A stretch of 32,000 bases of DNA from an uncultured Candidatus Saccharibacteria bacterium (GTDB taxonomy: Bacteria > Patescibacteriota > UBA1384 > JAMDBS01 > CAZXAY01): NCBI GenBank assembly GCA_964638435.1, contig CAZXAY010000003.1, forward strand, positions 8,431-40,430, read 5' to 3'. The notes under the pieces are model-generated. The model had not been told where the DNA came from. It did no database searches and saw only the letters and a list, made by a program, of their open reading frames with translations. Numbering within the stretch: the stretch's first letter is position 1; the number at the start of each line of letters is the position of its first letter. A program made the position numbers and the translations under genes. This document shows, one piece after another, positions 960-29,949 of the stretch.

Positions 960-1011
960 TTTTACCTCCTTGTTAATTAGTGTTTATGAAAATAATTTTG
1001 CCATCTAAAAT

Positions 1012-1159
1012 ATGGATAACGGGGACGGTTCTCTTTTACTCTGGAGTTTTACAATTTTATTAATTACCAAATCCAAATTATTATTATGGATAACGGGGAC
1101 GGTTCTCTTTTACTCTGGAGTTTTACAATTTTATTAATTACCAAATCCAAATTATTATT
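1012..1159. repeat. Perfect 74-bp tandem duplication (2 copies: 1012-1085, 1086-1159)
   Basis: Both copies read atggataacggggacggttctcttttactctggagttttacaattttattaattaccaaatccaaattattatt with no mismatch. Copy 2 overlaps the stop codon of the 1155..1766 CDS. Confidence 0.95.
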
Positions 1160-3358: not shown

Positions 3359-3577
3359 TTAATGTTGATGTTGGCAGGATTTAATCATACCGAGTATTGT
3401 TTTTGCTTCTGACTCATCAATTTTATTAATCGCCAAATCTCCATGACAAAGTAGCCAGTCGCCCTTTTTGGCTTTTGGCACAAGAGAAATATCAACTTCC
3501 TTATCACCATCAACAATAACTTTTAGTTTTTCGTTTTTAGTTTTTAGTTTTATTTGTACTGGTGTTGCTAGACACAT
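3359..3577 (-). CDS. hypC: HypC/HybG/HupF-family hydrogenase maturation chaperone-like protein
   Basis: 72 aa. Starts MCLATP (the family begins MCL(A/G)IP with an essential Cys2). GDWLLCHGDLAI..IDE.EA matches the conserved GDxVLVHxGxAI..IDexeA region. Confidence 0.7.
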   Translation of the reverse strand: MCLATPVQIKLKTKNEKLKVIVDGDKEVDISLVPKAKKGDWLLCHGDLAINKIDESEAKTILGMIKSCQHQH

Positions 3578-5524: not shown

Positions 5525-5776
5525 TTAAAATTCAAAATTCCCCCACTTCGCTCAATAGAGCTTCGAGGGACAAGCAATTTTTAATTTTTAATCAATGTTC
5601 AAAACTAAAATCTTAAATCTAAAAGTTAAAATTATAGTATTGAGTTTTTAAATTTAAGTTGTGGCTTTAAGTTTTTCGTTTTTACTTTTAAGTTAATAAC
5701 ATTTGAATTTGATCCGCCTAGGCATCGCTTATGGCGAGACTGGTTAAAAATTACAAATTAAAAATTTGAATTTAAA
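5525..5776. repeat. Composite of three hairpin modules filling the proS-tpiA spacer, two with GC-rich cores (5541-5575, 5714-5743)
   Basis: Module 1: aaaattcaaaattcc + ccccacttcgctcaatagagcttcgagggacaagc + aatttttaattttt. Module 2: aaaactaaaatcttaaatctaaaagtt ... aagtttttcgtttttacttttaagtt. Module 3: tttgaatttgat + ccgcctaggcatcgcttatggcgagactgg + ...aaatttgaattt. Confidence 0.75.
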
Positions 5777-7099
5777 TTACTTCATTAAGTAATTAATTAC
5801 ATCCTTTATCTCCACCAACTTCCCTTTTTCTTGATCACGTTTTTTAATTTCCACTGAATTCTCTTGTAATGTCCTCTCACTTATAATTATTCGCGTTGGG
5901 CAACCAATCAAATCAGCATCAGCGAACTTTTCCCCAGCACTAACTTCCCGATCATCATATAAAACTTCAACCCCAGCATCATATAGCTGATTATATAATT
6001 TCTCTACCTTAGTTTTTGGTTTTGAGTTTTGCTTGTCCCGCGAAGCTTTAGCGGAGTGGGAAGTTTTTAATTCTATCAGATGTACCTGATATGGTGCTAC
6101 CGATTCAGGCCAAACAATCCCTTTGTCATCATAATTACTCTCCACGATCGCACCCATATTTCTGCTAATACCAATCCCATAACAACCCATCAATACTGGC
6201 TGCCTTTGCCCTTTATCATCAATAAAATAATAATTAAATGATTTAGAAAATTTATCGTTGAGCTTAAATATGTTACCAACCTCAATGGTTCTATCAATTT
6301 TTCTGAGCTTTTTATTACCACACTGGGGACATACCCCCTTTTGTTTACCCTGACCTGCCCCGAGTATTCGCGAGGGGGCTGTGTCAAAGGGCTTCTCAGT
6401 AATCTCTTTATTAACTGCAATATTACATTTGTCACATACATGAATTTCATCTTCACCCGCCTCACATGGAACCTGAAATTCATGAGAATATTTACTAAAA
6501 GTTCCACCTGAGGCAAATGTTAAATAAACCTCTTTAAAACCTAACCTTTTAAAGATTTTAACGTAAGCTTTAGTCGCTTTTTCGTAATATTTATCAAGAT
6601 CTTCACTATCTTTATGAAATGAATATAAATCCTTCATCAAAAATTCTCTACCGCGGAGTAAACCTGATTTTGCCCTCACCTCATTACGAAATTTGTTTTG
6701 AATTTGATACACATAACGCGGTAAATCTTTGTAGGAACTAGCAAATTGTTGAACAAGTGGGGTTATAACCTCTTCATGGCTTTGATTTAGCACAAATTCA
6801 CTACCAGAATAAAGTTTTGTTTTAAAAAGTACATCAATATTCTCGCGACCAGTTGTCTTATATTTCTCAATTGATGTCAGAGTTGGCATTAATACCTCTA
6901 CACCACCAATATTATTAATTTCTTCCCGAACGATGTTCTCTATCTTTCTAAGAACCTTTAAACCTAATGGCAAAAAGGTATAAACTCCAGCCATTTCTTT
7001 ATCAATAAACCCACCTTTAATTAAAAGTTGGGCATTTAGTGATGTTTCCTCTTTTGGCACATTTTTTCGGGTTTTAGTAAAAAGCTGACTTAGTTTCAT
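5777..7099 (-). CDS. proS: Prolyl-tRNA synthetase (short form without large editing insertion)
   Basis: Class II motifs FRNEVRAKSGLLRGREFLMKDLYSFH and GCYGIGISR, CxxC...CxxC zinc ribbon, C-terminal anticodon-binding-like domain. Confidence 0.92.
   Translation of the reverse strand: MKLSQLFTKTRKNVPKEETSLNAQLLIKGGFIDKEMAGVYTFLPLGLKVLRKIENIVREEINNIGGVEVLMPTLTSIEKYKTTGRENIDVLFKTKLYSGSEFVLNQSHEEVITPLVQQFASSYKDLPRYVYQIQNKFRNEVRAKSGLLRGREFLMKDLYSFHKDSEDLDKYYEKATKAYVKIFKRLGFKEVYLTFASGGTFSKYSHEFQVPCEAGEDEIHVCDKCNIAVNKEITEKPFDTAPSRILGAGQGKQKGVCPQCGNKKLRKIDRTIEVGNIFKLNDKFSKSFNYYFIDDKGQRQPVLMGCYGIGISRNMGAIVESNYDDKGIVWPESVAPYQVHLIELKTSHSAKASRDKQNSKPKTKVEKLYNQLYDAGVEVLYDDREVSAGEKFADADLIGCPTRIIISERTLQENSVEIKKRDQEKGKLVEIKDVINYLMK
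6011..6068. repeat. In-frame repeat module inside proS (encodes KTSHSAKASRDKQNSKPKT)
   Basis: agtttttggttttgagttttgc + ttgtcccgcgaagctttagcggagtggg + aagttttt. The core is near-identical in pattern to intergenic cores at 5541-5575 (reverse orientation), 22623-22666 and 29970-30020. Confidence 0.75.
6325..6392. repeat. GC-rich in-frame module inside proS (encodes FDTAPSRILGAGQGKQKG)
   Basis: Contains acctgccccgagtattcgcgagggggct. It shares the ACCTGCC(C/T)CG word with gatA 28468-28479 and 28877-28887, and with the reverse complement of 19793-19804. Confidence 0.55.
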
Positions 7100-7103
7100 A
7101 ATT

Positions 7104-7189
7104 TTGTGTTAATCTCCACCAATCATATCTCACTAATTTCACTAACAATATTTTTAGTGAAATTCGTGTAAAAATATTAGTGGAGTTTA
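7104..7189. repeat. About 85-bp hairpin element (family ttgtgttaatctYcaccaatc ... atattagtggagttta), copy 1
   Basis: Ends match the copy at 11913-11993. Internal cactaat/attagtg and ttcactaa/ttagtgaa pairings. Lies between the rseP stop and the proS start. Confidence 0.8.
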
Positions 7190-7221
7190 AATCATTATCA
7201 TTCTATTCTGATTATATCAAA

Positions 7222-8960: not shown

Positions 8961-9047
8961 AAAAACTTAAAACGTAAAACTCAAATGTTCATAAATTTTA
9001 ATTTTTAAGTTGTAATTTTTTAGATTTTAGTTTTTACTTTTAAGTTT
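8961..9047. repeat. AT-rich 'ttttagtttt/aaaactaaaa' word hairpin between pyrH and frr
   Basis: aaaaacttaaaacgtaaaactcaaa pairs with tttagattttagtttttacttttaagttt. Confidence 0.7.
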
Positions 9048-10776: not shown

Positions 10777-10976
10777 ATAACCTCCTTAAATTATCTAATT
10801 TCTAATTGACCTAATTGCACTAAATAAATTCCAAATCCCAAGCACCAAATTACAAATAATTTTTAAAATATCAATTATCAAATTCTTAATAAGAAAAAAT
10901 ATTTGTCCCAGTTTTAATCATTGTAATTTAAGTAATTATAATTTATTTGAGATCTGTTATTTGAAATTTAATATAA

Positions 10977-11135
10977 TAGACTTGTTACGTAATAATTTTT
11001 GTAGCGAAAGCTAAGGATTTTGAGTGAAAATAATGAAGAGTGAGCAAGTTGTAACAGAGTTACACTGACGAACTATGAATTATTTTTTAACCAAAATTCT
11101 TAGTTTGCAGTAAAAATGTTATTTCGTAATAAGTC
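10977..11135. mobile_element. MITE-like element, copy A (159 bp), in the rpsB-tsf spacer
   Basis: About 95% identical to 19726-19914 apart from a 30-nt insertion in that copy. Imperfect terminal inverted repeats tagacttgttacgtaataa... / ...ttatttcgtaataagtc(ta). Flanked by TAA/TAA (10974-10976, 11136-11138). Confidence 0.8.
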
Positions 11136-11146
11136 TAAGGTTATAT

Positions 11147-11899: not shown

Positions 11900-11912
11900 C
11901 TTATAATCCTTA

Positions 11913-11993
11913 TTGTGTTAATCTTCACCAATCTTTTTGCACGAATTTCACGAAATATTAGTGATATTAGTGTAATGATATTAGTGGAGTTTA
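11913..11993. repeat. About 85-bp hairpin element, copy 2 (same family as 7104-7189)
   Basis: ttgtgttaatcttcaccaatc ... atattagtggagttta. Lies between the rpmE stop and the rpsB start. Confidence 0.8.
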
Positions 11994-12212
11994 TTACTTA
12001 TTCAATACTTTTGCTTTTTCAAGTCTTGCCTTAAATTTATCAACTCTTCCAGCAGTGTCAATTAATTTTTGTGTACCTGTATAAAATGGGTGGCATGCCG
12101 AGCAGATTTCTACATAAATACTCTCTTGGGTTGATCCTAACTCAAAGTTATTGCCACAGCTACAAGTTATTTTTGATTTTGGATAATATTTTGGGTGAAT
12201 ATCTTTCTTCAT
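11994..12212 (-). CDS. rpmE: 50S ribosomal protein L31
   Basis: [15 protein letters not shown]...[10 protein letters not shown] zinc motif, 72 aa. Confidence 0.93.
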
Positions 12213-15089: not shown

Positions 15090-16652
15090 TTAAACTTTTA
15101 ACTTATTATTAAGTATCTCATTTACAACTTGTGGATTAGCTTGCCCCTTACTCTCCTTCATCACGCATCCAACTAAAAATCCTACAATTTGAGTTTGACC
15201 GCCTTTTATTTTAGCCACCACGTCAGGATTTTTACTAATAACTTTCTCCACAATTTTTTCTAACTCACCAATATCAGAAATTTGTTCTAAACCTCTTTCT
15301 TTAATAATCTCTGATGGTTTTTTACCTTTATACAACTCTGACAAAATTTCTTTAGCTACTGATTTAGAAATTTTTCCAACTTTAATAGTACAAATAAGTT
15401 CTACAAACCATGCTGGGTTAATAGAAAAATCTTTGATATCGTTAATTATCCAAACAGCTAATTCAACTTTTGAATCGTCTGATATTAAATTTGCACATTT
15501 ATCAAATAATTTTGATCGCTCGCTATCAGATATAATCAAATTAGCATCAATTTTATTTAAACCAAATTTATTTTGATATCTATCTAAAACCTCTTCAACA
15601 GTCTCTGGTAATTGCTTAATAATCTCATTTATATTAATTATGTTTTTAGTTTTGAATTTTGGATTTTGGATTTGTTTAGAATTTAGAGTTTCGTGCTTAG
15701 AGTTTCCACCAATTACTACTGGTGGAAGATCTGGTTCCGGAAAATACCTATAATCAGCACTAGTTTCTTTAACTCGCATTATATAGGTTTTGTTTTTTAC
15801 CTCATCCCAACCGCGGGTTTCTTGAACAATTTTACCACCATTTTCAATCTCATCAATTTGTCGCTCAAGCTCAAATTCAATCGCCTTTTCAACTGATTTA
15901 AATGAATTAAGATTCTTAACCTCAACTTTAGTCCCAAATTCCTTTTGCCCTATTGGTTTAACGGAAATATTCGCTTCGCAACGCATTTGTCCCTTTTCCA
16001 TATCAGCGTCTGATACATCAAGCTTGCGAAGTCGCAATTGATAGCTCTGGCAAAACAATTTAGCAATTCTACCAGCCTCATCAATTGGCAAAGTTACAGC
16101 GTCCGTGACCAATTCCATTAGCGGTACGCCAGCCCTATTATAATCCATCAATGAGTAATCTACATCTGCCCTACCCTCCGGGTGTTTGCTTGTCCCAGTA
16201 TCTTCTTCCAAATGAATTCTGGTTATTCCAAAAGTTATTAGTTTTTCGTTTTCAGTTTTTAGTTTGAGCAAACCGCCAGTAACAATTGGTAAATCATATT
16301 GAGATATCTGATATCCTTTTGGTAAGTCTGGATAAAAATAGTTTTTTCGATCCCATTTAGTAAAGGTAGCAATATTGTCGGCTTTTTTATTATTTAAATA
16401 TAATCCAGTTTTTATGGTCATTTCAATCGCCTGTTTATTAAGTACAGGCAACATTCCAGGCATTCCCAAACACACCGGACAAATATTCATATTTTGTTCA
16501 GTTGGTTTAGATTCGCGTCTATTCGTGTTTTCATTCGGCATTATTCGTGTTGTGCTATTTGCACACGAGCAGAACATCTTTGACTGTGTTTTAAGCTCTG
16601 CATGAATCTCCAGCCCAATCACCGCTTCATATTTTTGATTGCTTTTTTTCAT
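15090..16652 (-). CDS. gatB: Asp/Glu-tRNA(Asn/Gln) amidotransferase subunit B
   Basis: YEAVIGLEIHAELKT, GMPGMLPVLN, RIHLEEDTG, YRYFPEPDLPP, C-terminal YqeY-like domain. Confidence 0.93.
   Translation of the reverse strand: MKKSNQKYEAVIGLEIHAELKTQSKMFCSCANSTTRIMPNENTNRRESKPTEQNMNICPVCLGMPGMLPVLNKQAIEMTIKTGLYLNNKKADNIATFTKWDRKNYFYPDLPKGYQISQYDLPIVTGGLLKLKTENEKLITFGITRIHLEEDTGTSKHPEGRADVDYSLMDYNRAGVPLMELVTDAVTLPIDEAGRIAKLFCQSYQLRLRKLDVSDADMEKGQMRCEANISVKPIGQKEFGTKVEVKNLNSFKSVEKAIEFELERQIDEIENGGKIVQETRGWDEVKNKTYIMRVKETSADYRYFPEPDLPPVVIGGNSKHETLNSKQIQNPKFKTKNIININEIIKQLPETVEEVLDRYQNKFGLNKIDANLIISDSERSKLFDKCANLISDDSKVELAVWIINDIKDFSINPAWFVELICTIKVGKISKSVAKEILSELYKGKKPSEIIKERGLEQISDIGELEKIVEKVISKNPDVVAKIKGGQTQIVGFLVGCVMKESKGQANPQVVNEILNNKLKV
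15642..15704. repeat. In-frame AT-word module inside gatB (encodes NSKHETLNSKQIQNPKFKTKN)
   Basis: gtttttagttttgaattttggattttggatttgtttagaatttagagtttcgtgcttagagtt. Shares the tttagaatttaga and ggattttggattt words with gatA 28495-28533. Confidence 0.75.
16510..16550. repeat. In-frame 'attcgtgtt' word module inside gatB (encodes TRIMPNENTNRRES)
   Basis: gattcgcgtctattcgtgttttcattcggcattattcgtgt. The same cacgaat/attcgtg words occur in the intergenic hairpins at 7104-7189 and 11913-11993. Confidence 0.6.
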
Positions 16653-16804: not shown

Positions 16805-19399
16805 CTATATTTGATAAATACTGTTAATATTAGTACCCGTTGTAATGGTAAAACTAAAATTGACTCTATGAGCGTCCTTTAAATATCTCTTTAAATAATT
16901 AGCAATTTTTTCGCGATTGCTTAAAGCATGATAACTACCTTCTTGACCGGTAATATAAACCCCTGCTAAATTATTATCTTGCTGAAACTTTTTGGCAATC
17001 TCTAGCACTGACTCACAAAAAGCACCGGCATCAATTTTATCTAACCAATCCACATTGGGATTAAATCCCCGCAATAGTAGCGCCTTTTGTCCATTGATTT
17101 TTACAATATAAGCCTGGATATTAGCTCGCACGGATTGTTCATTCTCCACAATATTAATATGCAAATGATCATTTCTGTTAAATAGATTAGCATCCGAAGC
17201 AGTGCAAACTCCCGCTGAGGCTTTGGCGAAAAATGAACCAATATTTTTAGAAAAATATGCTTTTAATCCGCTAGTGGTAGTAACTACTTTTTCGCCTATA
17301 TCACTTTTTTCAAATTTATTAATTTCTTGGCTAATTTTTTCTCTATAAGATTTTAATACTTTTTCAAAAAGTACCTTGCCAAAAAGTTTGGCCATCCCCT
17401 CAATGGTATTTATTGACTGCCAGTCGATTTTCTCTTTTTCACTGCCAAATAATTTTTTTATTGCTTGCTGTCTCTTCGGAGTATTTAACAGTTCCTGTAT
17501 TTCTTTTGTTAAAATATCATTTCCTAGCAAATAATTTTTTAAAGCTGTTTGATAATTATCTTTAAAATATACTCCTAATATTTCTTTTAATTCCATAAGA
17601 TAGTTGTAGCTGTTTTGATTATCTAATTTGGAGTATCTTAAAATAAAATTTGTTACTAAATCATCTTGACTAATTAAACTAAGCAATTCTCCTAGTTCTG
17701 TTAGATTAAAATCCGTTTTGGACTTGGCTAAACCTAATAATAATTTATCCCATTCGATTTTAGGATTAGATTCTTGCGAATTTTCCCGCAAAAATAATTG
17801 TTTAAAGGAATTAAGAACATTAAAATCTGTTGTTTTATTTTCTTTTAATCTAAGTGATTTGTGGCTAGTTATTGTTAAAGGGTAACCTTCTTTGGGAAAA
17901 ATGTAATTTTTTATATCTCCAGTTTTATCCTCGAGTTGATCAATCATTTTTTTTACTTGCTCAAAACTCATCCCTATTGGTTTGTATGCTGAATAAACCA
18001 TTTCAACTAGAATATCCTCGTCCTTGGCAGGTAGTATATTTTTTATAGGTTCATTCTGAAAGAATTTGGGTTTTAATTGCCTAATTTGAGCGGATAATTC
18101 ACTTTTACCAGCATGGTCGGCATGACGATAACGATCAAAGATTATTGGCGTTAATGAATCTAAGTCAGTAAGGGCTTGAAAAATTTCTTGTTGATTACCC
18201 AGTACTGAGTAATCCGTCAATCTTGTATCGCACAAAGTATCAATAACAGTATTAAACTGATTAGGATATTCGGCAATTAATTTTCTTAAAAAGGGCAAAT
18301 GATTATCATCGCCAAGGAATTTTTGTAAATTGCTTGTCAAAAAATTCTTGTTGATTAAATTTAAACAAAAATATCTAAAAAATCGAGCGGGTATCTCTTT
18401 TTTACCCAAAAATTTCATAACCAAGCTACTACCTTTAGCGCTATCAATTTCTGCCAATTCTTTGATTATACGCGCCTCAAAAGAAATCTTTTTGAGATGT
18501 TTTTCTAAATCTTTTTCACTTGCTAGACCTTGAAAACCTAATTTCTGCAATAATTTAATGCTGTCATCTGATTCGATATGCTTTAAAGTTTCACATAATA
18601 ATTTAACAGTGGGTTTATCAACAGCAAATTGTAAATTAACAGCTTTTCCCAAATCTCTTGACGCTCTATCTTGCACTAATAGTTGTTGCCATTTATCTTT
18701 TTCATTAATGTATTTTTCTTTTAAAAACGGTGCTAATTCATGATCCATAATTATTGAGGCCATCTGTCTCTGATTTTCAGGCATTAAGTTGATAAAATCC
18801 TCTCTCTTATTTTCGTCTAAAACTAAAGCGTAGTTTTTTAATAAATCTGGATCACTTGCAACCGAGCTGGCAATTTTTTCCATTGCTGGCATTGGCATTT
18901 TTTCAGTTTCCCTTTTTTGGATTCCTAAAATCATTGCCTCCGCAAGCATACTTGAGGGATTAAATTTAGGTATCCCAGATGCCTGGTCAAGCATTTTTTT
19001 AGCGTAATTTATCGTTTCGCCGAAATTTAACTCCGCCAATTGCTCATGCTTAGCAACATCCGCCAATAAATAGGCGCTTAAATTTGGTGCCACATCTGCC
19101 ATTAACATTGCCTTTTGGCGATTTTTTTCACCCTTTTCATTCAAATAATTTTGTGCCTCTTCTTTGGTGACAACTACATTCCCATCGACCTCATTTTTAA
19201 CTAACGCCAAAGTTTCGTGATATTTATTTTTTAAACTTTCTAATTCAGGTGGTGGCAAGTTTAAAACTAATATTTTTAGTTCCTGTGATTTTTTTCTTAA
19301 ATCAGCCATCATAAAAATCATTGATTTTTCATCACTAGATAAAAATTGCGCTTGTTGATTTTCTATATTTTGATTATTGTTAATAAATTCATTCATCAT
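16805..19399 (-). CDS. Large hypothetical protein (864 aa), no recognisable domain
   Basis: Long uninterrupted ORF. Its ATGATG start overlaps the TGA stop of the RT remnant (ATGATGAATGA, 19389-19399). Mostly helical-looking, Lys/Glu/Leu-rich. The C-terminal 160 aa are more globular (GVCTASD...LLLRGFNP...ITGQEGSYHALSNR). Confidence 0.7.
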   Translation of the reverse strand: MMNEFINNNQNIENQQAQFLSSDEKSMIFMMADLRKKSQELKILVLNLPPPELESLKNKYHETLALVKNEVDGNVVVTKEEAQNYLNEKGEKNRQKAMLMADVAPNLSAYLLADVAKHEQLAELNFGETINYAKKMLDQASGIPKFNPSSMLAEAMILGIQKRETEKMPMPAMEKIASSVASDPDLLKNYALVLDENKREDFINLMPENQRQMASIIMDHELAPFLKEKYINEKDKWQQLLVQDRASRDLGKAVNLQFAVDKPTVKLLCETLKHIESDDSIKLLQKLGFQGLASEKDLEKHLKKISFEARIIKELAEIDSAKGSSLVMKFLGKKEIPARFFRYFCLNLINKNFLTSNLQKFLGDDNHLPFLRKLIAEYPNQFNTVIDTLCDTRLTDYSVLGNQQEIFQALTDLDSLTPIIFDRYRHADHAGKSELSAQIRQLKPKFFQNEPIKNILPAKDEDILVEMVYSAYKPIGMSFEQVKKMIDQLEDKTGDIKNYIFPKEGYPLTITSHKSLRLKENKTTDFNVLNSFKQLFLRENSQESNPKIEWDKLLLGLAKSKTDFNLTELGELLSLISQDDLVTNFILRYSKLDNQNSYNYLMELKEILGVYFKDNYQTALKNYLLGNDILTKEIQELLNTPKRQQAIKKLFGSEKEKIDWQSINTIEGMAKLFGKVLFEKVLKSYREKISQEINKFEKSDIGEKVVTTTSGLKAYFSKNIGSFFAKASAGVCTASDANLFNRNDHLHINIVENEQSVRANIQAYIVKINGQKALLLRGFNPNVDWLDKIDAGAFCESVLEIAKKFQQDNNLAGVYITGQEGSYHALSNREKIANYLKRYLKDAHRVNFSFTITTGTNINSIYQI

Positions 19400-20140
19400 C
19401 TAATACCTCCATTATTTCCCAGCTAAATTCATTTAATTTATGCTTGGAATGTTGTTTTATTAAACCATAATAACTTGACGCATTATTTATGTTTAGCCTG
19501 CTCTTAATCCTTTTTAAATTTCGTTTGTTCAAACTCCTTTTATCTGGGTATATTACAACTCCTAAAAATTTTATTCCGCGCCTAGCTTTAACTATAATGT
19601 CATTTTTTAAATTAATCTTTAAAAGTAAACTATTTTCTATAAACCTAATTGTATTTTCTCGTATTTCTTCTAATTTAGCAAGATCCTTATCTAAAATTAT
19701 AAAATCATCTCCATAGCGCAAATATTAGACTTGTTACGTAATAATTTTTGTAGCGAAAGCTAAGAATTTTGAGCCCGCCTTGACTCGGATCAGGCGAGGC
19801 AGGTGAAAATAATGAAGAGCGAGGAAGTTGTAACAGAGTTACGCTGACGAACTATGAATTATTTTTTAACCAAAATTATTAGTTTGTAGTAAAAATGTTA
19901 TTTCGTAATAAGTCTATTGTTTTATTTTTAATTTATGTTTAATAAACCTGTCTAACTCGTTCAAATAAATATTGGCAAAAATCTAACTAGTTAGGTTGCC
20001 AATTGGCAAGCCCTTTCTATTAAGACCCCCCCCCAATGTCTGTTGAATTGTCATTCTGAGCTTGCGAAGAATCTCTATTATAACCATCAATAACAAAATT
20101 GATTATCTTTTTAACATTTGGACAATCAACTCGTCTAAAA
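19389..20140 (-). pseudogene. DGR-type reverse transcriptase, decayed (5'-truncated, frameshifted, nonsense codon, split by MITE)
   Basis: My minus-strand translation gives ...RRVDCPNVKKIINFVIDGYNRDSSQAQNDNSTDIGGG (frameshift in the G9 run) LNRKGLPIGNLTS*IFANIYLNELDRFIKHKLKIKQ | MITE | YLRYGDDFIILDKDL...FLGVVIYPD...SSYYGLIKQHSKHKL. This covers RT motif 4 with the DGR-typical IGxxxSQ (Q codon is TAG here), motif 5 YGDD, and motifs 6-7. Confidence 0.8.
19726..19914. mobile_element. MITE-like element, copy B (189 bp), inserted in the RT gene, carrying a nested 30-nt GC hairpin (19774-19803)
   Basis: Same termini as copy A, flanked by TAT/TAT (19723-19725, 19915-19917). Deleting 19726-19917 (192 nt) joins ...KHKLKIKQ to YLRYGDDF in frame. 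Confidence 0.85.
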
Positions 20141-20161
20141 ATAAAATAATAAAATTAAAGA

Positions 20162-21283
20162 TTAAAGTCCAATGGTTTGTGGTAACATTACCGAGGAGCG
20201 AACGCCGGAGCCGGAAACGCCGAGATTGTCCCCGCTCAAATCAGCCTGACAGCCGTAGCGATCCCAACGGCAGACCGGCGCCCCACCGGAAACCAAAGAA
20301 GCTATTAAATAACAAGCTCTTGCTTGATCATCTATTTGCTGGTTAGTTTGTTGTAAATGAATAATTGCATAAATTAACCAATCTTGGATAACTAAACCCA
20401 TTTCATTAGCATATTGGGGATCTTCTTGAAGTTTTTTCAGATAATCTATTGGTGATTGGTTGGCTTCCAATTGTTTCCTTGCCTGACCTGAGCTATGTCG
20501 AAGGGTTTTACCCTGACCCTTTGCTGGTAAGTCTGGCAAATTTTCTATCAGTTTAATAGACCAGCCATTAGTGGGCTTAACTTTGTTAAGATACGCTTGA
20601 TATTGTTTATTCTTTTCTTTAGTAATTCCAGTAAGAAGCTCATTAAGGGTAAAACCTTTAAAGCTTGGATCAGTAAAGTCTTTGGGGTAATAGGTCATTT
20701 TAGTATTGCCATCTTGGTCTTCTTGATCACAATTAAGGTATCCATCCCAAATAAAGATTGGATCAAATTTAGTAGAATCATTATCATCTTCTTTGAGTTC
20801 TAAGGACGAGCCATCTGTAGATAGGAGTTTACCTTCTTTATGTTTTTTAATGATTAACTGTTTGTATCTTGATATTAGTATTTCCAGTGGTAGAACCATA
20901 GGAGTAAGAAGCAATTTAGTAAATCCTTGAGATTCTTTAAGTTCAAGTATTTGCAGTTGTTCGGGGGTGATTTGGGAAAGGATTTCTTCATAGGTGGGAA
21001 TAGGATATTCTTTGATTTTAGTACTGTCATGGGGGTCAACTCCAAGAACACCAATATCTTGGCAGTCTAGGAGTATGTCAATAACTCCTGTTTCATTAAG
21101 AGTTTTAACTTGGGACTCCCATTGAACTTTAAGCTGGAGCTTTTCTGAAAGAGCTTCTAGTTTAACTTGATGCTCAGTTTTTTCTGGAGTATCAGTAAGG
21201 CTGAGATCCTTCGCTCCACTAAGACTAACATCGGGTTGAGTTTCTTGAGCTTGATTAAATTGTTGGGGTAATTGTTCGGACAT
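20162..21283 (-). CDS. Candidate DGR variable protein, paralog A (373 aa)
   Basis: Paralogous to 22752..23816 over most of its length. The C-terminal ~40 codons are GC-rich, A-poor and hyperdivergent, ending in a conserved VMLPQT. The stop lies about 20 nt from the RT remnant. Confidence 0.75.
   Translation of the reverse strand: MSEQLPQQFNQAQETQPDVSLSGAKDLSLTDTPEKTEHQVKLEALSEKLQLKVQWESQVKTLNETGVIDILLDCQDIGVLGVDPHDSTKIKEYPIPTYEEILSQITPEQLQILELKESQGFTKLLLTPMVLPLEILISRYKQLIIKKHKEGKLLSTDGSSLELKEDDNDSTKFDPIFIWDGYLNCDQEDQDGNTKMTYYPKDFTDPSFKGFTLNELLTGITKEKNKQYQAYLNKVKPTNGWSIKLIENLPDLPAKGQGKTLRHSSGQARKQLEANQSPIDYLKKLQEDPQYANEMGLVIQDWLIYAIIHLQQTNQQIDDQARACYLIASLVSGGAPVCRWDRYGCQADLSGDNLGVSGSGVRSSVMLPQTIGL
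20193..20311 (-). other. Putative variable region (VR) of paralog A
   Basis: Roughly two-thirds G+C by eye, in a ~30% GC genome. In the 75-nt core, A is the rarest coding-strand base (8/75 by my count). Bounded 3' by a block identical to paralog B (ggtttgtggtaacattacc, 20174-20192). Confidence 0.6.
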
Positions 21284-21287
21284 AATA

Positions 21288-21974
21288 TTATTTTGAATTT
21301 AATTTTAATAAAAATAACAGTTCTGGAATTAGTTGATCTTTTATCCAAATTTTTTGTTTACTATCAACAACCTCACCCAAACTATGTAAAATGTTGATAT
21401 TTGATTTTTTTTCTAACAACTTTATGATTTCTTTTAAATACTCTTTAGTATTTTTACCTGTTCTCAATTTTATAATATTTTCATTAATAGGCCAATTATT
21501 TTTTAAGAAAAAATATACATCAAACAAATCTCGGTTAGCGAGTTTTTTCCTATCCAATACGGCTACCAATTTATTAGCAAAAATACAATCTTTTGTCATA
21601 GTTAAAATTGGCAATCCTAAATAATTTTTTATCTCAAAAGTATTTTCATTAATCAATCTTGTAGAAATTTCTATCTTAATATTATGGGCCTCATTTTTGT
21701 ATGACAATAAAAAGTAAATCGTATTAGCTTTTATTTTTTTGTCCTTTATTTCTCCAATGTCTACTAAAATTCCTAATAACTTTTTGAATACAAAATCGAC
21801 TCTGTCTAACTGCGACAAATTAAAATCTAAGTCGGTAGAAAACCTAGGTAAGTTATAAAAAAGATAACAAGCCGTCCCGCCTTTAAAACCTAAAATTGGC
21901 GCTAGATCTCTATCAGAATAAATAGCATATAATATTTTGCTTAACACTACTTCATGTTCCTTTTTATCAAGCAT
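21288..21974 (-). CDS. AbiEii-family nucleotidyltransferase toxin (pair 1)
   Basis: GFKGGTACYLFYNLPRFSTDLDFN signature. Overlaps the upstream AbiEi-like gene by 8 nt. Paralog of 25203..25913. Confidence 0.8.
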   Translation of the reverse strand: MLDKKEHEVVLSKILYAIYSDRDLAPILGFKGGTACYLFYNLPRFSTDLDFNLSQLDRVDFVFKKLLGILVDIGEIKDKKIKANTIYFLLSYKNEAHNIKIEISTRLINENTFEIKNYLGLPILTMTKDCIFANKLVAVLDRKKLANRDLFDVYFFLKNNWPINENIIKLRTGKNTKEYLKEIIKLLEKKSNINILHSLGEVVDSKQKIWIKDQLIPELLFLLKLNSK

Positions 21975-22554
21975 ATAATTTCCTTAATTTAGCTAATTTT
22001 TTTTCTAAACTCTTATTATCATAAATTTTAACTATTTCACTGCAAATCTGCCAATCAATTTTTGCCAAATTGTCAAAATAAAAATCACCATATAGGTATA
22101 GGGTGTCGAGCAAGGCTCTCTCACAAGACGCAACATCATAATTCTCCTTTCTTACAATTCCACTTGAATTTAATAATACTGAATCTTTGATTTTTTTATA
22201 AACATATTTTTGTTTATCAATTATAATTTCTTTTGATAATTTAGAAATAGAATAAATTGCGCTATCATATTGGAATATTATTCCCGCCCTTAATAAAACA
22301 GTTTGTAAACTAATATATGATGGAATAATTATTTTATTTGCAAGTTCATCTTTTAAATAATTACTATCAATTGCATACAATCCATTTCTTACTCTATTTA
22401 GTTGGCCATTTTTGACTAACCGATATATTTTAGTTTTTAAATAATTTGGCTCAGGTATTTGCCAAATTAAAATTAGGTCTTTAGTACTAAAAACCGTTTT
22501 TTTACTTTTTAACAGTAGTGTTATAGAATTATCTATCATATGTTTGTATCTCAT
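21967..22554 (-). CDS. AbiEi-family antitoxin/transcriptional regulator (pair 1); true start probably the ATG at 22539
   Basis: N-terminal wHTH-like region (TKDLILIWQ...YRLVKNGQLNRVRNGLY), C-terminal ...CERALLDTLYL. Aligns with pair 2 from MIDNS. Confidence 0.75.
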   Translation of the reverse strand: MRYKHMIDNSITLLLKSKKTVFSTKDLILIWQIPEPNYLKTKIYRLVKNGQLNRVRNGLYAIDSNYLKDELANKIIIPSYISLQTVLLRAGIIFQYDSAIYSISKLSKEIIIDKQKYVYKKIKDSVLLNSSGIVRKENYDVASCERALLDTLYLYGDFYFDNLAKIDWQICSEIVKIYDNKSLEKKLAKLRKLYA

Positions 22555-22556
22555 AA

Positions 22557-22574
22557 GTAATCATATTTGATTAC
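22557..22574. promoter_or_regulatory. Inverted repeat gtaatca-tatt-tgattac upstream of AbiEi pair 1 (candidate operator)
   Basis: Perfect 7-bp arms. The consensus AAGTAATnATATTTGnTTAC is shared with the repeat upstream of pair 2 (26492-26516). Confidence 0.55.
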
Positions 22575-22751
22575 ATTTATATTATACATCCTAATAAATA
22601 TACTTGCAACTTTTGGCACCTCGCCCCACTTGTCCCGCGTAGCTTTATGCGAAGTGGGAAGACGGGTTTATTTACCAAATTATTCAATTGAAAAAAAATC
22701 TTTTTTAAAGTTCAAAATTAAAGGTTAAATATTAAAATCAAAATTCAAAGT

Positions 22752-23816
22752 TCAATTGGTTTGTGGTAACATTACCACGGGACGGGAACCGCAGTCCCCG
22801 TACGAGAAGTCAGGGAAGTCTCCGTACAAGTCCGCCCGACGGTTGTCGCGACTCCAATAGTAGCGCAGCACTTTGCCAGCTAGGTATGATCCAGTTAACC
22901 AACAAGCTTTCCCTTTGCTTCGCCAGTCATCTATTTGCTGATTGGTTTCTTGTAATTGGGTAATAGCGTAAATGAGCCAACTTTCTAAGGTTAAACCTTG
23001 TTCGTGGGTATATTGTGGGTCTGTTTGGAGTTGGTTTAGATAATCTATTGGGGTTTGGTTGGCTTCTAATTGTTTTCTTTCATTAAGGGTTTTGCCTTGG
23101 TTTTGGGCAGGTAAATCAGGGTTGTCTTCGATAAATAGTATTTGCCAACCATTAGTGGATTTAAGCTTATCAAGTCTTAGTTGATGTTGGTGATTATTAG
23201 CTTTTCCTGATATTAATTCTGATTTAACAAAGCCTTGGTGATTATCTTTATCAAATTGCTCTGGATAGTAAATTAGTCTGCCATCAGTGTCAGCATTCTT
23301 AATATCATCCCAAACATAGACTGGGTCAAATTTAGTAGAATCATTATCATCTTTTTTGAGTTCTAAAGACGAGCCATCAGTAGCTAAGAGTTTACCTTCT
23401 TGATGTTTTTTAATGAGTAATTGCTTGTATCTATCGATTAAGGTTTCAAGGTGCGCGCCAATTGGAACTAGTAGCATTTTAGTAAAGCCTTGTTCTTGTT
23501 TAGTTTCTAATACTTTAAGTTGTTCTGGGGTAATTTTAGATAAGATTTCTTCATAGGTGGAAATAGGATATTCTTTGATTTTAGTACTGTCATGGGGGTC
23601 AACTCCAATAACACCAATATCTTGGCAGTCTAGGAGTATGTCAATAACTCCTGTTTCATTAAGAGTTTTAACTTGGGACTCCCATTGAACTTTAAGCTGG
23701 AGCTTTTCTGAAAGAGCTTCAAGACGTAGGAGGTGTTCAGATTCTCTTGTTTCGGTGTTAGTCTGAGATAAGTCTGGGTCAGTCGGTATTAAGTTGTAAG
23801 GCAATTGTTCTGGCAT
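22752..23816 (-). CDS. Candidate DGR variable protein, paralog B (354 aa)
   Basis: Same family as 20162..21283, with a GC-rich hypervariable C-terminus ...LRYYWSRDNRRADLYGDFPDFSYGDCGSRPVVMLPQTN. The W...RA...P...G(x)RPVV pattern resembles C-type-lectin/FGE-type DGR VR scaffolds. Confidence 0.75.
   Translation of the reverse strand: MPEQLPYNLIPTDPDLSQTNTETRESEHLLRLEALSEKLQLKVQWESQVKTLNETGVIDILLDCQDIGVIGVDPHDSTKIKEYPISTYEEILSKITPEQLKVLETKQEQGFTKMLLVPIGAHLETLIDRYKQLLIKKHQEGKLLATDGSSLELKKDDNDSTKFDPVYVWDDIKNADTDGRLIYYPEQFDKDNHQGFVKSELISGKANNHQHQLRLDKLKSTNGWQILFIEDNPDLPAQNQGKTLNERKQLEANQTPIDYLNQLQTDPQYTHEQGLTLESWLIYAITQLQETNQQIDDWRSKGKACWLTGSYLAGKVLRYYWSRDNRRADLYGDFPDFSYGDCGSRPVVMLPQTN
22777..22901 (-). 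other. Putative variable region (VR) of paralog B
   Basis: GC-rich, with 14/75 A on the coding strand in the core. Bounded 3' by the identical block ggtttgtggtaacattacc (22758-22776). Confidence 0.6.
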
Positions 23817-27857: not shown

Positions 27858-28310
27858 TTATATCGCTCCCAAATTATGTAATCCTAACTTAAAATTATTT
27901 AAAGTTTTCCCTGCTTCGATACTAGTTAATTTATAACCCATTTCATGCGATATTTGATTACGAACTTTATGAGAATTCCAAACTTGCTGATATTTATTGT
28001 AGTCCATTTTCGATTCCAAACTTCTTAACCGATCAGCAAAGCTATCACCCTTTGCCCCAACCTGTTTCATCATACTATCAAAAAATTTATCAGCCTCGAT
28101 TATAGCTTGTTTGGCATGAATTTCGTCTCCACTTTCTAACATTTTTTCGATAATAAGCCAATTAGCTAAATTTTGAACTTTATTTATATTTTCGTTTTTA
28201 GTTTTTAGTTTTAAGATTTTCTTAATCGGCCAACATAATAAAAACCATAAACCTCTCAAGAGACTAAGTACTAATGTTTCTATTAAACTAGTTTGTTTTT
28301 TTCTCTTCAT
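27858..28310 (-). CDS. Membrane-anchored hypothetical protein (150 aa)
   Basis: N-terminal TM segment. Contains the repeat-encoded LKLKTKNENI stretch (28189-28215). No family recognised. Confidence 0.5.
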   Translation of the reverse strand: MKRKKQTSLIETLVLSLLRGLWFLLCWPIKKILKLKTKNENINKVQNLANWLIIEKMLESGDEIHAKQAIIEADKFFDSMMKQVGAKGDSFADRLRSLESKMDYNKYQQVWNSHKVRNQISHEMGYKLTSIEAGKTLNNFKLGLHNLGAI

Positions 28311-28332: not shown

Positions 28333-29949
28333 TTATATGTTACATGATTTCATATGCCAATCTGTTTCTTGTTGATATTGATGCGCAATAGAAAGAATAA
28401 TTTCTTCCCCAAATTGTGGCCCTAAAATTTGCATCCCAATTGGAAGATATGTGATTTGTGATTTGTGACCTGCCTCGCCGACGGACGGGTTTGTGATTTT
28501 TTTAGAATTTAGAACTTCGGATTTTGGATTTTCCACGTATCCACAAGGAATTGAAACTCCCGGGATTCCTGCGATATTGGCTGTAACAGTGTAAATATCC
28601 TCCAAATACATTTGCACTGGGTCTTTAACTTTATCTCCAAATTTAAATGGCATTGTTGGTGTTGTTGGAGTTAAAATCGCATCAACTTTTTCATATGCTT
28701 TTTTAAAATCTTCTATTACCAAAGTTCTAACTTTCATCGCTTTTTTGTAATATTTATCGTAATATCCCGCAGACAAAACATATGTTCCCATCATAATTCG
28801 TCGCTTAGCTTCAGCACCGAAACCCTGAGCTCGATTAAAATTATAATAATCAACCAAAGTTTTTAGTTTTTCATTTCCTGCCTCGAGCGTAGTCGAGAAG
28901 CTAGTTTTTAGTTTGTCTGCCGAAAACCCATATTTAATTCCGTCGTATCGAGCTAAGTTTGACGATACTTCAGCAGGTTGAATAATATAATAACATGCTA
29001 AACCATAATCCGTCATTGGTAAACTAATTTCTACAAATTTTGCTCCTAGTTTTTCTAATACTTTCTTTGCCTCATCAATTTTTCCAGCAATTCTTGAATC
29101 TAATCCTTTAGCAAAATATTCTTTTGGTAATCCAATCTTAAAAGTTTTTAAATTTAAACTGTGGTTTTTAGTTTTAAGCTTTAAATTTTTAGTTATATTT
29201 TCAGCTGAAAATATTTTATTCGGCACCGTTGTCGAATCCAGTGGATCATGTCCTCCAATAATTTCTTGTATTATTGCCACATCTTCAGCACTCCTTGCAA
29301 ATGGCCCAGGACAATCTAGACTAGAAGCCATAGCAATAATCCCAAATCTAGAATTTCGGCCATAAGTTGGTTTTAAACCAGTTATTCCGCAATATGCAGC
29401 TGGCTGACGGATTGAGCCACCAGTGTCCGTTCCAATAGAAGCAAAACCCATATTTACGGCGACGGCAACAGCCGATCCACCAGAAGAACCACCAGGCACC
29501 CTTTCTAAATCCCATGGATTTTTTGTTGGTCCAAAATCAGAATTCTCGGTTGATGATCCATGTGCCCAAGCATCTAAATTATTTTTGCCAATTATTACAG
29601 CGCCAGCATCTTTAAGTCTTTTAACTACAGTTGCATCATATGGCGGTATAAAATCTTCAAGCATTTTACTAGCTGCTGTAGTTTTTATACCATTTGTACA
29701 AAATAAATCTTTAATTGATATCGGCACACCATCTATTTGGCTTCTCTGCTCACCGCTCACCCTTCTCAAATCAGACTTCTGAGCCTGTTCAAGCGCCTCT
29801 TTTTCAGTCAAAGTTATAAATGCATGAACTTTTGGTTCAACTTCTTTAACACGCTCAAAAACCATCTTCGTTAATTCTACCGAAGAAATCTTTTTTTCAT
29901 CTAACATTTGGGAAATTTTTTTAATTGTTTTGTTTAAAATTACATTCAT
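28333..29949 (-). CDS. gatA: Asp/Glu-tRNA(Asn/Gln) amidotransferase subunit A
   Basis: Amidase signature GGSSGGSAVAVA..GTDTGGSIRQPA, KDLFCT..TTAASKML, C-terminal LPIGMQILG. Confidence 0.93.
   Translation of the reverse strand: MNVILNKTIKKISQMLDEKKISSVELTKMVFERVKEVEPKVHAFITLTEKEALEQAQKSDLRRVSGEQRSQIDGVPISIKDLFCTNGIKTTAASKMLEDFIPPYDATVVKRLKDAGAVIIGKNNLDAWAHGSSTENSDFGPTKNPWDLERVPGGSSGGSAVAVAVNMGFASIGTDTGGSIRQPAAYCGITGLKPTYGRNSRFGIIAMASSLDCPGPFARSAEDVAIIQEIIGGHDPLDSTTVPNKIFSAENITKNLKLKTKNHSLNLKTFKIGLPKEYFAKGLDSRIAGKIDEAKKVLEKLGAKFVEISLPMTDYGLACYYIIQPAEVSSNLARYDGIKYGFSADKLKTSFSTTLEAGNEKLKTLVDYYNFNRAQGFGAEAKRRIMMGTYVLSAGYYDKYYKKAMKVRTLVIEDFKKAYEKVDAILTPTTPTMPFKFGDKVKDPVQMYLEDIYTVTANIAGIPGVSIPCGYVENPKSEVLNSKKITNPSVGEAGHKSQITYLPIGMQILGPQFGEEIILSIAHQYQQETDWHMKSCNI
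28450..28533. repeat. In-frame repeat module inside gatA (encodes ENPKSEVLNSKKITNPSVGEAGHKSQIT)
   Basis: gtgatttgtgatttgtg + acctgcctcgccgacggacggg + tttgtgattttt + ttagaatttagaacttcggattttggattttc. The 12-mer acctgcctcgcc is the reverse complement of ggcgaggcaggt in MITE copy B (19793-19804). Confidence 0.8.
28858..28917. repeat. In-frame repeat module inside gatA (encodes KLKTSFSTTLEAGNEKLKT)
   Basis: agtttttagttttt + catttcctgcctcgagcgtagtcgagaagct + agtttttagttt. A GC core lies between direct copies of the AT word. Confidence 0.8.
29141..29195. repeat. In-frame AT-word stretch inside gatA (encodes KNLKLKTKNHSLNLKT)
   Basis: aaagtttttaaatttaaactgtggtttttagttttaagctttaaatttttagtt, the same ttttagtttt word family. 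Confidence 0.55.

What the first reader, a model, noticed from the sequence alone, without database searches (positions are those of the whole stretch)
19726..19914. MITE-like element whose excision restores the RT reading frame
Two copies (10977-11135 and 19726-19914) share about 95% identity and imperfect terminal inverted repeats that extend about 45 bp (tagacttgttacgtaataatttttgtagcgaaagctaag... / ...cttagtttgYagtaaaaatgttatttcgtaataagtc). With one consistent boundary choice each copy is flanked by a 3-bp direct duplication (TAA for copy A, TAT for copy B). The frames of RT motif 4 and motif 5 are fixed independently by homology and lie exactly 192 nt (189 + 3) apart. Deleting that stretch yields KHKLKIKQ-YLRYGDDF, the expected RT spacing. 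This is direct evidence of transposition into a coding gene. No transposase is present in the window. Because the ends are TA-rich, the exact boundary and TSD length are ambiguous by 1-2 nt.
Basis: seen in the sequence. Interest (0 to 1): 0.7.

Follow-up and report, generated by a model that had tools for sequence, protein, structure and literature searches.

The report
Small transposon inside a dead RT gene
A 189-base non-coding hairpin transposon (MITE), from a multi-copy family found so far almost only in groundwater Berkelbacteria, sits inside the remnant of a diversity-generating-retroelement reverse transcriptase gene that was also broken in three other ways; it is a real but fairly ordinary mobile-DNA insertion.

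Summary
Two copies (10977-11137 and 19726-19916) match at 155 of 161 aligned bases. Copy B has one extra 30-nt GC-rich module, and each copy folds into one long hairpin.

Public-data scans found the same termini at 35 independent sites. These are in Candidatus Berkelbacteria MAGs and groundwater metagenomes, with element sizes of 75-264 nt.

Across the family the best register is AGACTY...RAGTCT with a 3-bp duplication, mostly ATT/AAT: 23 of 35 sites are perfect and 9 match at 2 of 3. Copy B is therefore 19727-19915, flanked by ATT/ATT.

Removing 192 nt gives KIKQ-YLRYGDDF, the spacing seen in all 14 aligned homologs that cover this stretch. The repaired DNA aligns without gaps to a related RT gene.

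The RT is not an intact gene:
- its N-terminal ~165 residues, bAvd and the template repeat are missing;
- the conserved Q of motif 4 is a TAG stop;
- a G9 run shifts the frame.

No autonomous partner or transposase was found. Verdict: a new MITE family of a known kind, inserted into a decaying DGR.

Seen in passing: related CPR DGR RT genes carry a simple-sequence repeat at one loop that breaks or restores the frame. This may be a phase switch.

The parts
19727..19915 (.). MITE copy B, 189 nt, ends AGACTTGTTACG...CGTAATAAGTCT; it interrupts the RT remnant between motif 4 and motif 5
   Evidence: sequence and identity; family register; gapless alignment of the repaired site to the L117 RT
19724..19726 (.). 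Left copy of the 3-bp target-site duplication (ATT)
   Evidence: family statistics
19916..19918 (.). Right copy of the 3-bp target-site duplication (ATT)
19774..19803 (.). 30-nt GC-rich hairpin module present in copy B and absent from copy A. It marks a roughly 191-nt subfamily and is not a private later insertion.
   Evidence: indel; same module in L105, and partly in L063, L036, L080; weak hairpin
10978..11136 (.). MITE copy A, 159 nt in the family register, in the rpsB-tsf spacer about 10 nt after the rpsB stop. Flanks are AAT (10975-10977) and AAG (11137-11139).
19389..19723 (-). RT remnant, part downstream of the insertion: YLRYGDDF (motif 5) to the stop codon, 110 codons open
   Evidence: (P0001 99% identical)
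19919..20136 (-). RT remnant, part upstream of the insertion: from RRVDCPNV... through motif 4 GLPIGNLTS*IFANIYLNELDRFIKHKLKIKQ, in two frames
19983..19985 (-). TAG stop replacing the invariant Q of RT motif 4 (CAG in relative L117)
20026..20034 (-). G9 run (C9 on the + strand) at the frame break in the loop between RT motifs 3 and 4; G8 would join the two frames
   Evidence: same position as the repeats in relatives
20162..21283 (-). Putative DGR target gene 1 (373 aa) with a GC-rich, divergent 3' variable-region-like end; it abuts the truncated RT
   Evidence: homologous to the genes upstream of bAvd-RT in L117 and L118
22752..23816 (-). Putative DGR target gene 2 (354 aa), a paralog of target 1
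   Evidence: (D1, D2)

Best explanation
[quoted passage not shown] It is a non-coding, almost fully palindromic DNA transposon, found so far almost only in Candidatus Berkelbacteria (a CPR lineage from groundwater).

A transposase supplied in trans (not identified) presumably recognises the conserved termini AGACTYATTACGAAATAA. It would cut the target with a 3-nt stagger at A-W-T and paste the element in, which duplicates the 3 bp.

One such event placed the ~191-nt subfamily member into the palm-domain coding region of a diversity-generating-retroelement (DGR) reverse transcriptase, at ATT within ...AAA CAA T|AT TTG... (K Q Y L). The element carries stop codons in the RT frame, so it splits the gene.

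The same RT has also lost its 5' half together with bAvd and the template repeat, and it carries a nonsense codon and a frame-breaking G9 run. The cassette is a decaying DGR, and the MITE is one of several inactivating lesions.

Shown: repeat family, termini, 3-bp duplication, insertion point, empty homologous site, other lesions. Inferred: the cut-and-paste mechanism, the trans-acting transposase, and the order of the lesions.
For: Two copies at 96.3% identity.

Family:
- 4 hits in 3 Berkelbacteria MAGs.
- 103 metagenome stretches.
- 55 complete elements at 35 independent sites, sizes 75-264 nt.
- At least 14 further ends, 95-100% identical in their terminal matches to the window copies, on 12 AMFJ01 contigs. 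Many are at contig ends, as expected for a repeat.

3-bp duplication: 23 of 35 sites are perfect and 9 match at 2 of 3 in one register, against 0-3 of 35 in six shifted registers. Where the usual T or A differs (L019, L075, L103, L069), both flanks change together as a direct repeat.

Empty site:
- The repaired window aligns without gaps over 210 nt (about 80% identity) to the L117 RT, across the junction.
- All 14 aligned homologs that cover this stretch have the same K-x-K-x-YLRYGDDF spacing.

No coding capacity: the RT frame through the element has 5 stops.

Most other insertions lie at gene ends or in spacers.

Independent assemblies confirm the junction.

DGR context: bAvd lies next to the RT in relatives, and the order target - bAvd - RT - large protein is shared with the window's flanking genes.
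Against: No autonomous element with matching ends was found:
- no terminal-motif pair 400-6000 nt apart in about 750 kb of fetched loci;
- no transposase in the window.

No orthologous filled/empty polymorphism was seen. The empty site is in a homologous RT at about 80% DNA identity, not in the same strain.

Copy A fits the family register only at 2 of 3 positions.

The hairpin is conserved along its whole length with compensatory changes. A plain deletion derivative of an IS does not need this.
Confidence: 0.9

Rival explanations
1. The element is a TA-targeting MITE of the IS630/Tc1-mariner type (like Correia or RUP). Its ends would be GACTT...AAGTC and the duplication 2 bp (TA).
For: Nearly every copy reads TA-GACT...AGTC-TA, which looks like a TA duplication.
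Against: Removing the element plus one TA (189 nt) leaves an extra in-frame TAA codon between KQ and YL. None of the 14 homologs covering this stretch has an extra residue there. The base outside each TA is the same on both sides at most sites, and the 'invariant' T and A co-vary with the flanks as direct repeats in L019, L075 and L103.
Confidence: 0.05
2. The insert is an intervening sequence removed at the RNA or protein level (a small intron, or an in-frame translated palindromic element like the Rickettsia RPEs), so the RT is still made.
For: The insert plus one duplicate is a multiple of three (192 nt). It forms a strong hairpin.
Against: No Rfam family matches, even at E up to 10. At 189 nt it is far below group I or II intron size. 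There are five stop codons in the RT frame. The same element sits in spacers with 3-bp duplications at dozens of sites. The RT is dead for other reasons.
Confidence: 0.02
3. The apparent insertion is an assembly chimera produced by a repeated sequence.
For: Repeat copies commonly end contigs in these data sets.
Against: An independent assembly of the raw run has the MITE end joined to the motif-5 side. Both flanks belong to one RT gene, and they re-join exactly with a 3-bp duplicate. A random chimera would not do that.
Confidence: 0.02
4. The family is kept by the host as a functional RNA or DNA hairpin (transcript stabiliser, attenuator or processing site), and its spread by transposition is secondary. 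This does not exclude the best explanation.
For: Base pairing is preserved along the whole element, with both-sided compensatory changes at 6 predicted pairs, plus the apical stem GTAAC/GTTAC changing to GTCCC/GGGAC or GTAAT/ATTAC. Most copies lie just beyond gene ends. Copy A sits about 10 nt after the rpsB stop, inside the rpsB-tsf operon.
Against: No terminator-like or promoter-like signal above the shuffled expectation. Symmetry can also be kept by the needs of a transposase that binds both ends, or by repair between the arms of a palindrome. The RT copy has no plausible host function.
Confidence: 0.15

Closest known systems
Bacterial hairpin MITEs: Correia/NEMIS (Neisseria), RUP (Streptococcus, linked to IS630-Spn1), ERIC (enterobacteria) - from my own knowledge of these families
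   Same: About 100-200 nt, non-coding and nearly palindromic over their whole length. Many copies per genome, mostly in spacers and at gene ends. They come in size variants with internal insertions or deletions. For some (Correia, ERIC) the mobilising enzyme is unknown.
   Different: Those elements duplicate TA. This family duplicates 3 bp, mostly ATT/AAT. There is no sequence similarity. The host is a CPR lineage with a very small genome.
MITEs of 3-bp-duplicating transposons: IS5-family groups (IS1031, ISL2, IS427) and PIF/Harbinger 'Tourist' elements - from my own knowledge
   Same: A 3-bp target-site duplication at a short, AT-rich, self-complementary target.
   Different: The targets reported for those are TNA or TWA. 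Here the target is A-W-T. No transposase or matching IS ends were found, so membership is untested.
MITE-like and IS-mediated decay of DGR loci in Thiohalocapsa PB-PSB1 (bioRxiv 10.1101/2023.09.22.558884, read)
   Same: Hairpin-forming MITE-like repeats and IS elements interrupt or replace DGR reverse transcriptase genes and template repeats. This leaves orphan targets and partial cassettes.
   Different: That case is a gammaproteobacterium, with arrays of repeats matched to identified IS elements. Here a single element sits in a CPR genome, with no partner IS identified.
Rickettsia palindromic elements (RPE) - from my own knowledge
   Same: Palindromic repeats found inside protein-coding genes.
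   Different: RPEs are in frame and translated. This element has 5 stops in the RT frame and cannot be read through.

Membership tests
MITE (non-autonomous DNA transposon) | Terminal inverted repeats | tested here: met
   34-35 of 45 terminal positions are complementary in the window copies. The 19-nt terminus is conserved across the family.
MITE (non-autonomous DNA transposon) | Small size and no coding capacity | tested here: met
   Sizes are 75-264 nt. Stops are present in the RT frame, and no listed ORF of 60 aa or more lies within either element.
MITE (non-autonomous DNA transposon) | Many dispersed copies in one genome and in related genomes | tested here: met
   35 independent sites. 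At least 14 near-identical ends on 12 AMFJ01 contigs, plus 2 copies in the window. 3 Berkelbacteria MAGs.
MITE (non-autonomous DNA transposon) | Target-site duplication of fixed length | tested here: met
   3 bp: 23 of 35 perfect and 9 of 35 at 2 of 3, against 0-3 of 35 in shifted registers.
MITE (non-autonomous DNA transposon) | Empty sites lacking the element and one duplicate | tested here: met
   The homologous RT gene in L117 aligns without gaps across the repaired junction, and 14 protein homologs share the spacing. No same-strain polymorphic empty site was found.
MITE (non-autonomous DNA transposon) | Autonomous partner with the same termini, encoding a transposase | tested here: inconclusive
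   None in about 750 kb of fetched loci or in the window.
IS630/Tc1-mariner-type MITE | TA dinucleotide duplication | tested here: not met
   A TA model leaves an extra stop codon in the RT. The flanks support 3 bp.
IS5-family / PIF-Harbinger-type MITE | 3-bp duplication at TNA or TWA, and a DDE transposase of that family | tested here: inconclusive
   The length of 3 bp is met. The target sequence is AWT (19 AAT/ATT, 3 ATA/TAT, 1 ACT), not TWA. No transposase was found.
IS200/IS605-derived palindromic elements (PATE, REP/BIME) | No terminal inverted repeats, no duplication, insertion next to a fixed 4-5 nt motif | tested here: not met
   Long inverted termini and 3-bp duplications are present.
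Self-splicing intron (group I or II) | Conserved ribozyme core | tested here: not met
   No Rfam match at gathering score, or at E up to 10. The element is 189 nt.
Diversity-generating retroelement (the interrupted gene's system) | RT with the DGR-type motif 4 (I/LGxxxSQ) and an adjacent Avd | tested here: met
   The remnant reads GLPIGNLTS(*)IFANIYL. bAvd lies next to the RT in 8 related loci. bAvd itself is absent from the window.
Diversity-generating retroelement (the interrupted gene's system) | Template repeat paired with a variable repeat, plus a complete RT | tested here: not met
   No third copy of the variable-region-like segments exists in the window. The RT lacks its N-terminal ~165 residues. 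The cassette is degenerate.

The most novel reading that the evidence does not exclude
The family may not be a simple deletion derivative of a known IS. It may instead be a self-standing, structure-constrained palindromic element, so far seen almost only in Berkelbacteria/CPR. The points that suggest this are:
- the whole-length hairpin is kept by compensatory changes;
- it has a modular build, with nested GC-rich hairpin cassettes;
- its 3-bp target is a symmetric A-W-T;
- no autonomous partner was found.

If so, it would be moved by a transposase not yet recognised, possibly supplied by a phage or by the host organism of these episymbionts.
Probability: 0.2. Interest if true: 0.55.

Novelty: new member of a known kind. 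Interest (0 to 1): 0.35.

Why it matters
It documents an active or recently active MITE family in CPR bacteria, whose genomes are about 1 Mb and are usually described as poor in mobile DNA. I found no description of it in the searchable literature.

It gives exact ends, a 3-bp A-W-T target and size variants, which can be used to search for the missing transposase.

It explains why Berkelbacteria assemblies break at these points.

It is a clean, base-resolved example of how DGR cassettes are dismantled: deletion of bAvd, template repeat and the RT 5' half, a nonsense codon, and a MITE. This leaves two orphan variable-protein genes.

None of this changes current understanding of transposons.

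Tried and rejected
- Rfam, on the whole window at gathering thresholds and on 19600-20050 at E up to 10: nothing credible.
- Viral contigs: 7 hits to the 19-nt terminus. None extends beyond about 20 nt, so they are chance.
- Plasmid and phage collections, distant blastn with copy A: no match.
- Search for a long element bounded by the termini (400-6000 nt apart) in all fetched loci: only two adjacent 92-nt elements.
- Interior 'solo' termini. L021/L081/L106, L037/L062 and L004 match only about 23 nt and look like chance. L033/L042/L057/L066 and L044/L060/L104 are truncated or rearranged copies.
- Search for same-strain empty sites among fetched loci: none apart from the homologous RT.
- Promoter and terminator scans around both copies: not above shuffled expectation.
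- Recoding of TAG to Q, considered for the TAG in motif 4: rejected. The window's long housekeeping ORFs read normally with the standard bacterial code, and the RT has other lesions.
- Looked for the RT N-terminal half elsewhere in the window (tblastn with six full-length homologs): absent.
- Looked for a template repeat: absent.
- The MAFFT alignment of the interrupted RT against L117 misplaced the large gap.

Full report
**1. What is in the sequence**

The window is AT-rich (about 30% GC). It carries housekeeping genes on the minus strand; the names gap, tpiA, proS, rseP, frr, pyrH, tsf, rpsB, gatB, gatA and gatC are read by eye from the translations, with only gatA and rpsB checked against a database.

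The 110-aa ORF at 19389-19721 is 99% identical to 'ACD_58C00036G0001'. The element's relatives are in Candidatus Berkelbacteria MAGs. The source is therefore a Berkelbacteria (CPR) genome from groundwater.

- They match at 155 of 161 aligned bases, and copy B has one extra 30-nt GC-rich segment at 19774-19803.
- Their first and last 45 bases are 34-35/45 complementary.
- Each copy folds into a single long hairpin, well beyond shuffled controls: z = -7.3 for A and -3.8 for B.

**2. The interrupted gene**

On the minus strand, one frame reads ...GLPIGNLTS*IFANIYLNELDRFIKHKLKIKQ. It then runs through the element, with five stops, and continues YLRYGDDFIILDKD... to a stop at 19389.

The repaired protein matches Pfam RVT_1 only over model positions 110-205 of 205. 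It has more than 1,500 homologs, mostly from CPR genomes.

In an alignment with 15 other sequences (14 homologs plus the window's own 110-aa ORF, P0001):
- the segment K-x-K-x-YLRYGDDF has the same length in all 14 that cover it;
- the Q of GNLTSQ is conserved in the 12 that reach motif 4.

Deleting 192 nt therefore restores exactly the expected spacing, whereas deleting 189 nt would leave an extra codon (TAA).

At the DNA level, the repaired window aligns without a gap over 210 nt (about 80% identity) to the closest RT gene I could fetch (L117). The alignment runs straight across the junction. That gene has CAG where the window has TAG.

The RT is DGR-type:
- motif 4 is I-G-N-L-T-S-Q;
- in eight related loci a bAvd gene lies next to the RT;
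- the gene order is target - bAvd - RT - large protein.

The window's 373-aa and 354-aa paralogs (20162-21283 and 22752-23816) are homologs of those target genes. The 864-aa protein downstream is a homolog of the large protein in L117.

Compared with this order, the window has lost bAvd, the template repeat and about 165 N-terminal codons of the RT:
- tblastn with six full-length RTs finds nothing upstream of residue ~165;
- there is no third copy of the variable-region-like segments.

RT homology begins at about 20136, some 25 nt after the stop of target gene 1. The two targets differ mainly in their GC-rich 3' ends, as expected for variable regions. The cassette is a degenerate DGR.

**3. 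The element is a member of a repeat family**

A scan of one genome per species with a 22-nt terminal pattern gave six loci. Four of them are in three Berkelbacteria MAGs and are full elements of 75, 162, 168 and 238 nt.

A scan of JGI/ENA metagenome contigs gave 103 stretches. By their names these are groundwater samples: Hainich H43, Ga02100xx, and AMFJ01.

With a fuzzy terminal motif I found:
- 55 complete elements, which reduce to 41 distinct sequences and 35 independent sites;
- size classes of 75, 92, about 162, 168, 183-192, 238 and 263-264 nt;
- many single termini lying within 20-70 nt of contig ends, the usual signature of a repeat that breaks assemblies.

Twelve AMFJ01 contigs carry ends whose terminal matches are 95-100% identical to the window's copies. 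I take these to be the same population or a very close one; that is an inference.

The 30-nt module of copy B recurs in L105 (92% identical) and in part in L063, L036 and L080. Copy B therefore belongs to a ~191-nt subfamily that has itself spread. It did not acquire the module after landing in the RT.

Other members carry different GC-rich hairpin cassettes at other internal positions, so the family is modular.

Independent Logan assemblies of SRR446575 stop inside the element next to the RT fragment and next to rpsB. One of them shows the junction ...CGTAACAAGTCTAATATTTGCGCTATGGAGATGAT.

**4. Ends and duplication**

The symmetric register AGACTY...RAGTCT is perfect in 26 of 40.

After removing repeated sampling of the same site, that becomes 23 of 35 perfect and 9 of 35 with 2 of 3. 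Six shifted registers give 0-3 of 35.

The duplicated triplets are AAT/ATT (19), ATA/TAT (3) and ACT (1). The target is thus the self-complementary A-W-T.

The T and A next to AGACT...AGTCT are almost invariant and could be mistaken for part of the element. However:
- in L019, L075 and L103 they differ, and the opposite flank changes with them as a direct repeat (ATA/ATA, TAT/TAT);
- in L069 it is the middle base that differs, and it changes on both sides (ACT/ACT);
- the middle base is identical, not complementary, on the two sides at most sites.

This is what a target duplication predicts and what a longer palindrome does not.

Copy A gives AAT/AAG. A TA-only duplication is rejected, because it leaves an extra stop codon in the RT.

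**5. Where the family lands and what constrains it**

When each site is repaired in silico, most insertions fall a few codons outside a start or stop. The RT insertion is one of the few clearly inside a reading frame. Another is L038, which lies inside an ORF containing the peptide NIAEGFGR. I recognise that peptide from memory as typical of the four-helix-bundle/Avd-like family; I did not test this.

An alignment of 13 members of about 162 nt shows that pairing is kept along the whole length. Both-sided compensatory changes occur at six predicted pairs, for example T/A to C/G at position 7 and its partner. The apical stem changes from GTAAC/GTTAC to GTCCC/GGGAC or GTAAT/ATTAC.

This can reflect a transposase that needs matching ends, repair between the arms, or selection on a DNA or RNA hairpin. 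I cannot separate these.

**6. What I could not find**

- No element with these termini 0.4-6 kb apart exists in the ~750 kb fetched.
- No transposase domain is present in the window.
- There is no match in plasmid or phage collections, and viral-contig hits are chance.
- The searchable literature has no description of MITEs in CPR or Berkelbacteria.
- The nearest precedent is the report of MITE-like repeats and IS elements degrading DGR loci in Thiohalocapsa PB-PSB1.

**7. Mechanism and verdict**

Most likely (0.9), a trans-acting transposase inserted a ~191-nt MITE at an ATT in the RT palm-domain coding region and duplicated the ATT.

The order of this event relative to the 5' deletion and the nonsense mutation is unknown. 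The 110 codons after the element are still open and about 73% identical to the closest homolog, so all the lesions are probably recent.

A simple excision that leaves both ATT copies would give an in-frame TAA. Only loss of the element plus one ATT restores KQ-YL, and even then the gene stays dead.

This is a new family of a well-known kind of element, so its interest is moderate.

**8. Seen in passing, possibly more interesting**

Of the 120 best RT homologs, 54 start at MPIGNLTSQ (plus two just before motif 4) and about 10 more start inside a RERERESK stretch. These are C-terminal half-ORFs.

In all eight independent loci I inspected, the break between the N- and C-terminal ORFs lies in a simple-sequence repeat in the loop between motifs 3 and 4:

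| Repeat | Loci |
|---|---|
| (GA)9 | L117, L118/L121, L122 |
| (GA)7 | L123 |
| (GA)5 | L125-127 |
| G9 | L124 |
| (CA)10 | L128 |

Further observations:
- The frame offset is +1 in some loci and -1 in others, which argues against one fixed ribosomal frameshift.
- L131 has (GA)9 in frame and encodes a full-length 316-aa RT.
- The window's remnant has G9 at the same place, out of frame by one base.
- Different repeat units at one site suggest a contingency (phase-variation) switch of the mutagenic RT.

Against this, the same repeat length was seen in every sample shown for two of the proteins, and I could not look at reads. I found no paper linking DGR RTs with such repeats.

Noticed in passing
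window 20026-20034 (G9 on the minus strand); L117, L118, L121-L128, L131 at the junction of the two RT ORFs: Related CPR DGR reverse transcriptase genes are mostly called as two ORFs. In all 8 independent loci inspected, the frame break lies in a simple-sequence repeat in the loop before motif 4: (GA)5-9, (CA)10 or G9. L131 has (GA)9 in frame and a full-length RT. The window's remnant has G9 at the same spot, one base out of frame. This may be a phase-variable on/off switch of the DGR RT. I found no paper describing it.
   Followed up: partly
window 19389-23816: The DGR cassette is degenerate. Two paralogous target genes have divergent GC-rich 3' ends. bAvd, the template repeat and the 5' half of the RT are missing compared with the order in L117 and L118. 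An AbiEi/AbiEii toxin-antitoxin pair sits between the two targets.
   Followed up: yes
window 7098-7201 and about 11905-11995: A second palindromic repeat of about 100 nt: two 52-nt arms with no spacer, 73% complementary. It has two copies at 83-89% identity. One lies just upstream of the proS start and the other just upstream of the rpsB start. It may be another MITE-like family (I2, I3, D11, D13).
   Followed up: no
window 3498-3550, 5643-5695, 8995-9047, 16229-16265, 28175-28211, 29143-29195: AT-rich repeats of the TTTTAGTTTTT type occur in spacers and also inside coding regions. The copy at 29143-29195 lies in gatA, where the protein has extra segments (such as KNLKLKTKNHSLN and NPKSEVLNSKKITNPSVGEAGHKSQIT) that are absent from solved GatA structures. 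A similar copy lies in gatB.
   Followed up: partly
window 1011-1158: A perfect tandem duplication of a 74-nt unit (100% identical), next to the 3' end of an AbiEii-like gene (D6, 77).
   Followed up: no
L038 393-555: Another member of the MITE family lies inside an ORF containing NIAEGFGR. I recall that peptide as typical of the four-helix-bundle/Avd-like family, so this may be a second hit in a DGR-associated gene type. The family assignment was not tested.
   Followed up: no
L008, L009, L023, L039, L044, L061, L066 (internal parts of family members): Larger members of the family carry different short GC-rich hairpin cassettes at various internal positions, for example GAATACCTCGGAGCTTGCTCCGAGG and GTCCCGACAAAATGTCGGGAT. 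This suggests a second layer of small mobile or recombining hairpins nested in the MITEs.
   Followed up: no
L003 4433-4476: A contig binned as 'Gammaproteobacteria' ends in a 44-nt piece of this otherwise Berkelbacteria-associated element. The contig is probably mis-binned.
   Followed up: no
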